A stretch of DNA of 43,270 nucleotides from a virus: the IMG/VR virus record IMGVR_UViG_3300034069_000622, positions 1 through 43,270 of that record; one strand, 5' to 3'. The position numbers and the translations under genes are program-made. How positions within the stretch are numbered: position 1 is the stretch's first letter; the number at the start of each line of letters is the position of its first letter. Shown one piece after another: positions 26,920 through 27,758 of the stretch. The notes below the pieces were generated by a model. It had not been told where the DNA came from, ran no database searches, and saw only the letters and a list, made by a program, of their open reading frames with translations.

Positions 26920-27758
26920 AATTTCACCCCGTGAAGTCGGAGTGTATAGATAGTTCAGCGATGCCGCAAATTGCAGGATGACGTTTCGTTTCGGTGCCGC
27001 GCGGCAAAGAGATGTGGTTTAAGGGTTGGCGAACGTGAGGCGTAAAAGCTGATCCGTATCTTTGCCGCGATGGCCGTTGCAACGGGATGTCGTCGACCGG
27101 GGATACGCGCACAACCACCTTTGGTGGTCTGCAAGGGTCTGGACTACGCACTCAATTACCTGAAGTGTACAGTGGGGTTGGCCACCACAATTGGGTTCCG
27201 GCGTCGCGTCCGGTCGCGTTCACTTTGATTGCTTATTTTGAACGTGGTTCTCGAAAAACTGTGTGTTTGGAACCGAGGGAGACTACCTCGTAAGTCGTCG
27301 ATCTCGTCTTTGGGTCGTGCAGCGAGTAGGGGCCACGTTCGCTTTTATGGCCGGTTCAAAGCGTGAGGTAACTTAGTAGGCGTGGGGTCGGACCGAACAC
27401 GCTCGAACACTGATGCACGCCGCCCGACCTTGCACGCATGGTAGGGCGCTCAAAAGACCGTTTGATGCCGTCTCGCGAGGGAGGGCTAGTACAGCGGAAT
27501 AATGAGCCCTGGTTACGCGGGGGGAACTGGCCGCCTTTTACTTTGGTTTTTGAACGCGGAGCGCGTGAAAGCTGTGGTGGTGACATCGCGAAAGCGAGTT
27601 TTCTCGATCCGCTGGAGCACGCGGGCCTGAGGTACGGCCGCCCTTTCCGAGAAGGTACCTTGCCCGGCGCCGGGTACAGAGAGGGTGTCAGAGTCGCGTC
27701 TGGCTCGCGTTCGCTTTTGATATATTCTGATATAAAATCTTAAAATTCTGGAGACCAA
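26920..27758. other. Long coding-free region: candidate large structured RNA (plus-strand sense favoured) and/or cis-acting pac/ori/promoter region
   Basis: No ORF here shows the GC3 bias of the genuine genes. G exceeds C on the plus strand, which is opposite to the flanks. There are six copies of GAACGYG / CRCGTTC, a perfect 11-bp helix at 27000-27010 / 27059-27069, and a GNRA hairpin at 27586..27597. See findings. Confidence 0.4.
27717..27746 (+). promoter_or_regulatory. AT-rich sigma70-like promoter region upstream of plus-strand ORF 27759
   Basis: TTGATA (27717..27722), 18 nt, TAAAAT (27741..27746). An alternative extended -10, TGaTATAAA, lies at 27728..27736. GGAG at 27750..27753 precedes the TTG start. 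This is the most AT-rich stretch in the area. Confidence 0.4.

What the first reader, a model, noticed from the sequence alone, without database searches (positions are those of the whole stretch)
26920..27758. About 840-nt coding-free, G-skewed, motif-punctuated region between the packaging and head modules: candidate large structured RNA, or a pac/ori-type cis element
The genome is otherwise almost gapless, yet this stretch has no ORF with the strong GC3 bias that every convincing gene here shows.

Strand bias: by my hand count, 26941..27720 has roughly 258 G against 187 C on the plus strand. That is the opposite polarity to the flanking minus-coded genes and is what a G/U-rich plus-sense structured transcript would look like.

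Repeated core: the region carries six copies of one short core in two orientations.
- GAACGYG at 27031, 27240 and 27552.
- Its complement CRCGTTC at 27215, 27333 and 27706. These three sit inside a longer shared box, CGTTC(A/G)CTTT(T)(G)AT.
- From base composition I would expect well under one copy in 800 nt.

Possible helices: the copies can pair as three consecutive domain-closing helices.
- 27031-37 / 27215-21, with one G.U.
- 27240-47 / 27333-40, a perfect 8 bp.
- 27552-62 / 27703-12, 10 bp with one bulge.

Other elements:
- A perfect 11-bp helix at 27000-27010 / 27059-27069.
- UCGC-GAAA-GCGA at 27586..27597 (GNRA loop).
- AGGGCU/AGCCCU at 27482 / 27505.
- AGGUAC/GUACCU at 27630 / 27655.
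- ACCACC-UUU-GGUGGU around 27114..27128.
- A TGTATAGA box at 26943..26950 resembles the TGTATAAT early promoter at 41767 and could launch a plus-sense transcript diverging from the GNAT/portal operon.

Size and phage context recall the large ornate RNAs (GOLLD/ROOL class), but I cannot assign a family from memory. The same motifs could instead be protein-binding half-sites, for example TerS or the small HTH protein at a pac site, or iterons.
Basis: partly seen in the sequence, partly recalled or inferred. Interest (0 to 1): 0.8.

Follow-up and report, generated by a model that had tools for sequence, protein, structure and literature searches.

The report
Tandem array of unclassified phage RNA
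The 840-base gene-free stretch is a head-to-tail array of four copies (two canonical, two degenerate) of a structured RNA found in many uncultivated phages, absent from Rfam and of unknown function.

Summary
Window 26920-27758 has no codon periodicity. The G/C counts and the six GAACGYG/CRCGTTC copies are exact.

The region is not one 840-nt RNA and not a pac or ori site. It is four consecutive units on the + strand:
- U1, 27030-27222
- U2, 27240-27340
- U3, 27349-27532
- U4, 27551-27713

Pattern scans found the same architecture in about 45 unrelated phage contigs:
- P1, then a two-base linker (A/C)G
- P2, GCGUG/CACGC
- an internal loop, G(R)AAGCU / UGGA(G)A
- a variable P3 and a variable middle
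- P4, a 5-bp hairpin with the loop A-GU(C/A)GCG-Y
- the P1 3' strand, with no gap after P4

A covariance model built only from non-window members hits U4 (E 1e-5) and U1 (E 1.4e-4). All four helices covary. G.U pairs outnumber A.C by 21 to 3, which fixes the strand.

Rfam 15, ARAGORN and 50,697 cultured phage genomes gave no match. Members lie in intergenic slots, sometimes in tandem and sometimes beside tRNA genes; one follows RtcB and a tRNA.

Function is unknown. My best guess is a stable, tRNA-like processed RNA.

The parts
27030..27713 (+). Whole array: four tandem RNA units U1-U4, separated by U-rich linkers of 8-18 nt
   Evidence: Covariance-model hits at both ends. Strictly alternating GAACGYG / CRCGTTC motifs. 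The homologous two-unit array in L003 and the single unit in L004.
27030..27222 (+). Unit U1, canonical. P1 27031-27037 / 27215-27221. Linker AG 27038-39. P2 GCGUA 27040-44 / UACGC 27145-49. Internal loop AAAGCU 27045-50 / UGGAC 27140-44. P3 27051-27139, with base GAUCC/GGGUC. P4 CCGG-CGUCGCGU-CCGG 27198-27213.
   Evidence: Model R1, built without any window-clade sequence, scores 25.4 bits, E 1.4e-4. The G-to-A change in P2 is compensated by C-to-U.
27240..27340 (+). Unit U2, short and degenerate. P1 GAACGUGG 27240-47 / CCACGUUC 27333-40. P2-like CUCG 27250-53 / CGAG 27274-77. Loops AAAAACU 27254-60 / UGGAAC 27268-73. No P3 and no canonical P4 loop.
   Evidence: Read from the sequence. P1 forms in the MFE fold. 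R1 does not detect it, so membership is inferred, not shown.
27349..27532 (+). Unit U3, divergent. P1 GGCCGGUUC 27349-57 / GAACUGGCC 27524-32. P2-like GCGUG 27361-65 / CACGC 27398-402. A P4-like hairpin with a UACGCG-containing loop lies just before the P1 3' strand.
   Evidence: Read from the sequence. The 9-bp P1 forms in the MFE fold, z = -2.6. R1 does not detect it, so membership is inferred.
27551..27713 (+). Unit U4, canonical. P1 27552-27558 / 27706-27712. P2 GCGUG 27563-67 / CACGC 27618-22. Loops AAAGCU 27568-73 / UGGAG 27613-17. P3 27574-27612, with the GAAA-capped hairpin 27586-97 at its tip. P4 GUCAGA-GUCGCG-UCUGGC 27687-27704.
   Evidence: R1 scores 30.2 bits, E 1e-5. The MFE fold recovers P1, P2 and P4. 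The P4 stem CAGA/UCUG covaries against the family's CCGG/CCGG.
26923..27007 (+). Conserved leader and divergent control region. Candidate + promoter TTCACC (26923-28), 16 nt, TATAGA (26945-50). Conserved block AGTGTATAGATAGTTCA. Perfect palindrome TGCCGCGCGGCA 26995-27006.
   Evidence: These blocks are nearly identical in L003, while the surrounding sequence differs. Promoter function is inferred only; the consensus scan did not flag it.
27717..27746 (+). Sigma-70-like promoter TTGATA-18-TAAAAT, directly after U4 and ahead of orf76
   Evidence: It is the only promoter-like site in 26000-29000, matching 10 of 12 positions. L003 has no counterpart: there orf77 starts 25 nt after the last unit.
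27759..27989 (+). orf76, a small protein gene on the same strand as the array. It is a paralog of orf94 (27970-28254, minus strand) and of L004 orf85.
   Evidence: GC3 is 0.90-0.92 in its frame. The order 'unit(s) then this gene' is kept in L003 and L004. It has no Pfam or PHROG family. L005 carries the gene without any RNA unit.

Best explanation
The region encodes, on the + strand, a tandem array of four copies of a structured non-coding RNA. The RNA belongs to a widespread phage-associated family that Rfam does not hold.

SHOWN
- Each canonical unit (U1, U4) folds on its own into a P1-closed multi-helix domain.
- It carries the family's conserved P2/internal-loop module and a P4 hairpin with the invariant loop A-GU(C/A)GCG-Y. 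P4 stacks directly on the 3' strand of P1.
- U2 and U3 are degenerate paralogs.

INFERRED
- The array is transcribed rightwards, away from the GNAT/portal operon, from the conserved control region near 26923-26950, and runs into orf76.
- The U-rich tracts after each P1 give partial termination or processing sites, so individual units of 100-190 nt accumulate as stable RNAs.

SPECULATIVE (about 0.25-0.3)
- The gap-free P1+P4 stack is most often 13 bp (range mostly 11-14).
- A 2-nt linker follows P1.
- Members sit in or beside tRNA clusters, and tRNA-like T-arms are inserted in some members.
- Together these suggest the units mimic the acceptor/T arm of tRNA. They would be cut out by the tRNA-processing machinery and then act in trans on a tRNA-recognising host or phage factor, for example as decoys.
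- Several non-identical units would raise the dose or widen specificity.
For: IDENTITY
- R1 was built from 10 units of other phages and hits only 27552-27712 (E 1e-5) and 27030-27222 (E 1.4e-4) in the 43-kb window. The next best hit scores 11 bits.

FAMILY
- The two ends of the RNA validate each other. Units found through the 5' pattern all carry the P4 loop. Units found through the P4 pattern carry the 5' module.
- R1 recovers about 45 full-length members.

STRUCTURE
- 96% of cells are paired, against 77% in shuffles and 29-44% with slid partners.
- P1 pairs 3-7 each show 4-6 pair types, with about half the sequences changed on both sides.
- At the P3 base, 83 of 93 cells pair, against 50 +/- 3.7 in shuffles.

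STRAND
- G.U+U.G 21 against A.C+C.A 3.

TRANSCRIPT CONTEXT
- TTGACA/TATAAT-type promoters end just before P1 in L176, L161 and L121.
- Other members sit 3-19 nt from co-directional genes.
- A U-tract follows P1 in 18 of 41 members.

tRNA LINK
- Same-strand tRNA genes lie 7 nt (L050), 64 nt (L218), 187 nt (L110) and about 400 nt (L184, L207) away.
- L218 has the order RtcB, tRNA-Pro, RNA.
- The L189 insert scores 28.5 bits against tRNA, just under the gathering score of 29.
- T-arm-like hairpins occur in 5 of 41 units, against 1.2 expected.
- The linker between P4 and the P1 3' strand is 0 nt in nearly all members.

ARRAYS ELSEWHERE
- L003 (2 units), L201, L187 and L050.
Against: - There are no expression data, so transcription, ends and processing are all inferred.
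- The proposed + promoter is weak, and the consensus scan did not flag it.
- MFE z-scores are weak.
- U2 and U3 are not detected by the model.
- The P4 loop has 8 nt and is not a T-loop. ARAGORN sees no tRNA or tmRNA. CCA after P1 is only sporadic. The tRNA-mimic reading is therefore an analogy.
- Most members (about 31 of 38 loci) have no tRNA in the DNA held.
- Family members were collected with exact sequence patterns. The apparent invariance of the motifs is therefore partly an effect of how they were found, and the true diversity is under-sampled.
Confidence: 0.6

Rival explanations
1. A cis-acting element inside polycistronic transcripts. Each unit would serve as a processing, termination or stability signal that separates the upstream and downstream cistrons, like the tRNA-like 't-elements' of plant mitochondria or tRNA punctuation. 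There would be no trans function.
For: - Many members fill the gap between two co-directional genes with spacers of only 3-19 nt (L046, L205, L191, L117, L118, L213, L199, L045).
- A U-tract follows P1 in 18 of 41 members.
- In L003 the array abuts the orf77 start codon.
- The flanking genes are heterogeneous.
Against: - Some members have their own promoter ending right at P1 and no close downstream gene (L161, L121, L176).
- The complex conserved loops, P4 loop and P2/P3 internal loop, exceed what a terminator or cleavage signal needs.
- Arrays of 2-4 units are hard to justify for punctuation.
Confidence: 0.17
2. A riboswitch-like or attenuator leader, in tandem copies, that senses a ligand or factor and controls orf76 or the downstream gene in other phages.
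For: - Aptamer-like layout: a variable P1, conserved junction and loop nucleotides, and variable peripheral stems.
- It sits directly upstream of an RBS in L046, L205, L176 and L215.
- P1 is followed by a U-tract.
Against: - Downstream genes share no theme: primase-helicase, a 3'-5' exonuclease domain (DNA_pol_A_exo1), integrase, dGTP diphosphohydrolase, unknowns, and even a tRNA 7 nt away.
- Several members are followed by nothing or by a convergent gene.
- Follow-on units in arrays lose the conserved P4 loop.
- The window has a separate promoter between U4 and orf76.
Confidence: 0.1
3. A DNA-level element: pac site, replication origin or iterons, with the motifs acting as protein-binding half-sites.
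For: - It lies between terminase and portal.
- The short motifs are repeated.
- An HTH protein and an HNH endonuclease are encoded nearby.
- A conserved palindrome lies at 26995-27006.
Against: - The P1 sequence is free to vary as long as pairing is kept.
- G.U is tolerated and A.C is not, 21 against 3.
- Homologous units sit in many unrelated genomic contexts.
- The units are absent from relatives with the same packaging genes (L005, L220-L223).
- In L004 the unit lies on the other strand relative to terminase and portal.
Confidence: 0.03
4. A CsrB/RsmZ-type sponge RNA for the phage-encoded CsrA homolog or for host CsrA.
For: - The window and L003 encode CsrA next to TerS.
- The conserved motifs contain GGA: GUGGAA, CUGGAG, CCGGAG.
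Against: - GGA is not enriched in the array: 11 observed against 13.7 +/- 3.1 expected.
- The GGAs sit at helix edges, not in hairpin loops.
- No CsrA was found in the DNA held for the other roughly 35 RNA-bearing loci.
- L220 and L221 have CsrA but no unit.
Confidence: 0.03
5. One large ornate RNA of about 0.8 kb (GOLLD/ROOL class), or a decayed gene, or a chance pattern.
For: The size and the phage context. The whole-region MFE on the + strand is slightly better than shuffles, z = -1.4.
Against: - No Rfam match.
- Each unit closes on itself, and single units occur alone elsewhere.
- Unit number varies 0/1/2/4 among relatives.
- No coding periodicity and no Pfam hit.
- The E-values and covariation exclude chance.
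Confidence: 0.02

Closest known systems
GOLLD and ROOL RNAs (large ornate phage/prophage ncRNAs, Rfam RF01998 and RF03087)
   Same: Phage-borne, with a complex conserved fold and unknown function. Often next to tRNA genes. GOLLD can carry an embedded tRNA, as the L189 member nearly does.
   Different: No sequence or structure match in Rfam searches. Units are 110-260 nt, not 580-800 nt. They occur as tandem arrays of independently closed units.
Bacterial/phage Y RNAs (YrlA; Chen et al. 2014, PMC4201824)
   Same: A modular ncRNA whose 5' and 3' ends pair. It has tRNA-like modules, is processed by RNase P, can be encoded in tandem (YrlA/YrlB), is found in some phages, and is genomically linked to RtcB in Salmonella. 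One member here follows RtcB and tRNA-Pro.
   Different: The YrlA hallmark motif GNCGAAN0-1G and its conserved D- and T-arm sequences were not seen by eye in the units, and no Rfam Y RNA-type family matched. Rsr/Ro60 was not looked for in the window or in other loci. The conserved motifs here (GCGUGGAAGC, GUCGCG loop) are different.
tRNA, tmRNA and viral tRNA-like structures; mitochondrial 't-elements'
   Same: A terminal helix stacked without a gap on a 5-bp hairpin, together most often 13 bp against 12 in tRNA. A 2-nt linker after the terminal helix. Location in or near tRNA clusters. Tandem gene arrays.
   Different: ARAGORN and the Rfam tRNA/tmRNA models find nothing in the window. The P4 loop has 8 nt, not a 7-nt T-loop. 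There is no D-loop or anticodon arm, and CCA is inconsistent.
Type III toxin-antitoxin RNA arrays (ToxI and phage pseudo-ToxI)
   Same: Tandem repeats of a structured RNA in phage genomes whose copy number changes between relatives.
   Different: ToxI-type repeats are about 34-45 nt, nearly identical, and adjacent to an endoribonuclease toxin gene (from general knowledge). Here the units are 100-190 nt, highly diverged and individually closed. No such toxin gene was seen next to them, and this was not tested by profile search.

Membership tests
New family defined here (P1 / GCGUG-GRAAGCU module / GUCGCG-loop hairpin RNA) | Significant match to a covariance model built from members of other phages | tested here: met
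   U4 scores 30.2 bits, E 1e-5. U1 scores 25.4 bits, E 1.4e-4. U2 and U3 give no hit.
New family defined here (P1 / GCGUG-GRAAGCU module / GUCGCG-loop hairpin RNA) | P1 closing helix directly abutting a 4-6 bp hairpin whose 8-nt loop reads N-GU(C/A)GCG-N | tested here: met
   U1: CCGG-CGUCGCGU-CCGG 27198-27213, then one unpaired U (27214), then P1 3' 27215-21. U4: GUCAGA-GUCGCG-UCUGGC 27687-27704, then the P1 3' strand (7-bp reading 27706-12 after an unpaired U at 27705; the 9-bp reading 27705-13 abuts P4). Not met by U2. U3 has only a degenerate version.
New family defined here (P1 / GCGUG-GRAAGCU module / GUCGCG-loop hairpin RNA) | P2 GCGUG/CACGC flanking the internal loop G(R)AAGCU / UGGA(G)A, with P3 emerging from it | tested here: met
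   U1: GCGUA-AAAGCU...UGGAC-UACGC, with a compensated change. U4: GCGUG-AAAGCU...UGGAG-CACGC. U2 and U3 keep recognisable remnants.
GOLLD / ROOL / HEARO / group I-II introns and all other Rfam 15 families | Match to the family covariance model | tested here: not met
   No match at gathering score in the window. Nothing relevant at E<=10 in 26700-28000. In 16 homologous loci only genuine tRNAs matched.
tRNA / tmRNA | Cloverleaf, or tRNA-like domain plus tag reading frame, recognised by ARAGORN or Rfam | tested here: not met
   ARAGORN finds 0 genes in the window. There are no Rfam tRNA or tmRNA hits in the window.
Y RNA (YrlA type) | GNCGAAN0-1G motif near the 5' end, conserved tRNA-like D and T stem-loops, and a gene next to Ro60/Rsr | tested here: inconclusive
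   No Rfam Y RNA-type match. The motif was not seen by eye in the units. Presence of a Ro60/TROVE gene in the window was not tested.
CsrB/RsmZ-type CsrA sponge | Many GGA motifs, enriched and presented in hairpin loops | tested here: not met
   11 GGA in 684 nt against 13.7 +/- 3.1 in shuffles. CsrA is absent from the other RNA-bearing loci held.
Riboswitch / cis-regulatory leader | Consistent placement upstream of one functional class of genes, with an expression platform | tested here: not met
   Downstream genes are heterogeneous, and some members precede tRNAs or nothing. Ligand binding cannot be tested here.
pac / cos / origin / iteron DNA element | Sequence-conserved duplex binding sites, strand-symmetric, tied to the packaging or replication module | tested here: not met
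   Changes in the helices are compensatory and G.U exceeds A.C by 21 to 3. Contexts are varied. The units are absent from relatives with the same terminase and portal. Packaging termini cannot be tested: the assembly is circular with a 27-nt overlap.

The most novel reading that the evidence does not exclude
The family is a new class of phage non-coding RNA built around a tRNA-like acceptor/T-arm stack. The units would be cut out of arrays and tRNA clusters by the tRNA-processing enzymes. They would then act in trans, either as decoys or inhibitors of tRNA-targeting host immunity or tRNA-recognising enzymes, or as subunits of a multi-copy RNA assembly. The differing P4 loops of array members would give different specificities.
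Probability: 0.2. Interest if true: 0.9.

Novelty: categorically new. Interest (0 to 1): 0.74.

Why it matters
Complex-fold RNAs that are widespread yet have no assigned function are rare. They have repeatedly led to new biology: riboswitches, ribozymes, OMEGA guide RNAs and the GOLLD/ROOL cages.

This family has four covarying helices, invariant loop nucleotides, a variable copy number and a link to tRNA loci. It appears restricted to uncultivated phages, which would explain why it has not been noticed.

The work gives a concrete consensus and about 45 example loci, enough to seed an Rfam-style family. It also turns "what is this gap in the phage genome" into testable questions:
- Are the units excised?
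- By which nuclease?
- What binds the GUCGCG loop?

For annotation, it shows that this gap is a gene array, not junk and not a packaging site.

Tried and rejected
1. Rfam at gathering score and at E<=10, on the window and on 16 homologous loci: only true tRNAs matched.
2. blastn of the region and of two canonical members against 50,697 cultured phage genomes: nothing relevant.
3. Protein-guided search of viral contigs with the GNAT and portal proteins: no close relatives. Relatives were reached instead through the portal protein search and contig look-ups.
4. First DNA pattern, GAACGYG...GCGTRRAAGCTG: all 39 viral hits were chance or coding.
5. Scan of bacterial genomes with the 5' pattern: all 59 hits were coding sequence, mainly one conserved Alcaligenaceae gene, and none was the RNA. 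Most of the 67 metagenome hits were the same gene.
6. CsrA-sponge idea: rejected.
7. Pairing of the P4 loop with the GCGUG segment: rejected, because changes in P2 (U1, L215) and in the loop (L045, L118, L003A) are not matched.
8. Thermodynamic z-scores: uninformative.
10. Literature searches by sequence string and by topic found no description of this RNA. The catalogue of about 10,000 unnamed viral RNA candidates (PMC10690425) may contain fragments of it, but I could not check that.
11. A trimmed 5'-domain alignment (A6) came out out of register and was dropped. P3 was counted directly instead.
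Full report
1. SETTING

The window is a circularly assembled phage genome of about 43.2 kb, with a 27-nt terminal overlap.
- Its large terminase is 38% identical to that of the Xanthomonas CP2 group.
- Its portal is about 44% identical to epsilon15-type portals.
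- In those distant relatives the portal gene follows TerL closely, with only one or two small ORFs between them.

In the window, about 2.8 kb lies between TerL and the portal:
- TerL, 28939-30447 (-)
- HNH endonuclease, 28494-28925 (-)
- a small HTH protein, 28297-28575 (-)
- orf94, 27970-28254 (-)
- orf76, 27759-27989 (+)
- the 840-nt gap
- a GNAT acetyltransferase, 26464-26919 (-)
- a possible ORF, then the portal

2. THE OBSERVATION

It is accurate.
- The three-phase GC3 profile is flat over 26925-27750, while the neighbours reach 0.9-0.98.
- The G and C counts are exactly as stated.

Four sub-claims need correction.
- The 7-mer is expected about 1.1 times, not far below once. P(>=6) is about 9e-4.
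- The plus-strand G excess is not opposite to the neighbouring minus-strand genes, which also show it.
- The 11-bp inverted repeat is not conserved in the nearest relative and would cross a conserved helix.
- Folding energies do not differ from shuffled controls.

3. WHAT IT IS

The nearest relative is L003, with 88% portal identity. It has a 540-nt gap at the same place. Reading it beside the window shows repeated units.
- Each unit starts GAACGYG..GCGUGGAAGCUG.
- Each contains CUGGAACACGC.
- Each ends GUCGCG..CGCGUUC followed by U-rich sequence.

L004 (72% portal identity) has a single unit right after TerL, on the same strand as TerL and the portal. L005 and four further relatives have none.

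The element is therefore accessory. Copy number varies 0/1/2/4. In the window and L003, the module "units then orf76-like gene" is inverted relative to L004.

4. A WIDER FAMILY

Two independent patterns were scanned.
- The 5' pattern, GCGTRRAAGCTG-N25-55-CTGGARCACGC, found units in unrelated viral and metagenomic contigs with very different GC content. All of them also carry the 3' hairpin with loop GU(C/A)GCG and a closing helix.
- The hairpin pattern, GCCGGAGTCGCGYCCGGC, found units that carry the 5' module. These include a minimal form, GCGUG-GAAAGCAGA-CACGC, that lacks P3.

All 59 pattern hits in bacterial genomes were coding sequence.

I built covariance model R1 from ten units, none from the window clade.
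- In the window it hits only 27552-27712 (30.2 bits, E 1e-5) and 27030-27222 (25.4 bits, E 1.4e-4), both on the + strand.
- Over 61 loci it recovers about 45 full-length members.

5. STRUCTURE

The consensus, 5' to 3':
- P1, 7-8 bp, often starting U-G and ending C-A
- a linker, (A/C)G
- P2, GCGUG
- G(R)AAGCU
- P3, variable or absent
- (C)UGGA(G)A
- CACGC, then A
- a variable middle of 60-190 nt, with a subfamily motif AAGACAAUA..GGGUAAUC..CAGUAAGC
- P4, GCCGG-A GUCGCG Y-CCGGC
- the P1 3' strand, with no intervening base

Pair counts on the model alignment:
- 96.3% of cells are paired. Column shuffles give 76.6% (0 of 500 reach the observed value). Slid partners give 29-44%.
- Every P1 pair shows double changes. 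Pairs 3-7 have 4-6 pair types.
- P2 and P4 are mostly conserved, but three P2 pairs and four P4 pairs show compensatory changes.

The first four pairs of P3, extracted by anchors, pair in 83 of 93 variable cells, against 50 +/- 3.7 in shuffles.

G.U+U.G outnumber A.C+C.A by 21 to 3. The functional strand is therefore the one given, which is the + strand in the window.

Caveats: members were found through exact patterns, and the alignment was fitted to the model. Motif invariance is thus overstated. P1, which no pattern used, carries the strongest signal.

6. THE WINDOW ARRAY

U1 and U4 have every family feature; coordinates are under "parts". U1 has a compensated P2 change (GCGUA/UACGC). U4 has a compensated P4 stem (CAGA/UCUG).

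U2 (27240-27340) keeps:
- P1
- a replaced P2 (CUCG/CGAG)
- both internal-loop strands (AAAAACU / UGGAAC)

It lacks P3 and the P4 loop.

U3 (27349-27532) has:
- a P1 of different sequence (GGCCGGUUC/GAACUGGCC)
- a GCGUG...GAACACGC module
- a degenerate P4-like hairpin

The model does not detect U2 or U3, so their status is inferred.

The same pattern occurs in L201 and L187: a canonical unit followed by units with a different P4 loop.

7. CONTEXT AND LIKELY MODE OF ACTION

- Some members have consensus promoters ending just before P1 (L176, L161, L121).
- Many others fill an intergenic slot, with 3-19 nt to co-directional genes.
- A U-tract follows P1 in 18 of 41 members.
- Flanking genes are unrelated to one another: primase-helicase, a 3'-5' exonuclease domain (DNA_pol_A_exo1), integrase, dGTP diphosphohydrolase, tail-like proteins.
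- tRNA genes lie on the same strand within 450 nt in five loci. Two stand out: one is 7 nt away in L050, and L218 has the order RtcB, tRNA-Pro, RNA.
- The variable region of L189 holds an almost complete tRNA.
- Four or five members have T-arm-like hairpins.
- P1 plus P4 form a gap-free stack, most often 13 bp.

I conclude with high confidence (about 0.9) that these are RNA genes of a new family, and that the window region is an array of them.

With low confidence (0.25-0.3), I propose that they are tRNA-like in processing and target.

In the window, transcription probably starts in the conserved block near 26923-26950 and continues into orf76. orf76 also has its own promoter-like site at 27717-27746. 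None of this has been measured.

8. ALTERNATIVES

- A purely cis-acting punctuation or terminator role, and a riboswitch-like role, remain possible.
- DNA-element, CsrA-sponge, single-large-RNA, pseudogene and chance explanations are contradicted.

9. NOVELTY

- No Rfam 15 family matches.
- No ARAGORN call.
- No match in cultured phage genomes.
- Nothing in the searchable literature.

I rate the family as new. Two reservations apply: fragments may sit unnamed in large candidate catalogues, and its general kind, a phage structured ncRNA of unknown function found near tRNAs, has precedents in GOLLD and ROOL.

Noticed in passing
window 30966-31148 (-): A CsrA-family protein gene (Pfam PF02599, 43 bits) lies directly downstream of the small terminase gene (31150-31734). 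The same TerS-CsrA pair is in L003 and L220, and L221 also encodes CsrA. A phage-encoded translational regulator inside the packaging module is unusual.
   Followed up: partly
window 27759-27989 (+) and 27970-28254 (-): orf76 and orf94 share the motif FS..C.RYLV and are apparent paralogs (similarity judged by eye, not by an alignment tool). They are convergent, and their 3' ends overlap by 20 nt. Compared with L004, the segment 'RNA array + orf76' appears inverted. Neither protein has a Pfam family, and only a borderline PHROG hit was found.
   Followed up: partly
window 26995-27006 and 26941-26957: A perfect 12-bp palindrome TGCCGCGCGGCA and the block AGTGTATAGATAGTTCA are conserved with L003, while the surrounding non-coding sequence is not. 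They may be an operator and divergent promoter between the GNAT/portal operon and the RNA array.
   Followed up: no
window 28494-28925 (-) and 28297-28575 (-): An HNH endonuclease (HNH_3) lies immediately downstream of TerL and overlaps the annotated start of a small HTH protein by about 80 nt. The real HTH start is probably further downstream. Relatives carry different cargo here: a D12 methyltransferase in L003, and an HNH in L220.
   Followed up: no
L218 1586-3190 (-); L050 6439-6675 (+): L218 has the gene order RtcB RNA ligase, tRNA-Pro, RNA unit. In L050 a second RNA unit ends 7 nt before tRNA-Cys. Both suggest co-transcription with tRNAs and a link to RNA repair.
   Followed up: partly
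L189 7066-7296 (-): The variable middle region of this family member contains a nearly complete tRNA (28.5 bits; gathering score 29). T-arm-like hairpins also occur inside L186, L203 and L176.
   Followed up: partly
L182, L183, L188, L193, L195, L197, L206, L211, L216 (positions): In a group of high-GC viral contigs the GCCGGAGUCGCGCCCGGC hairpin follows a hairpin GCGUGGUC..ACCACGC, just after a conserved gene end and a TTGAC-type box. No clear P1 is visible. This may be a shorter relative of the family.
   Followed up: no
window 7001-15055 (-): A single ORF of 2684 codons occupies nearly a fifth of the genome. It was not examined.
   Followed up: no
L051-L109 and many of L110-L176: The 5' RNA pattern matches by chance a conserved protein-coding gene of Achromobacter, Bordetella and other Burkholderiales, always as a 52-nt match. 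This is a warning that such patterns need a second, independent feature before a hit is accepted.
   Followed up: yes
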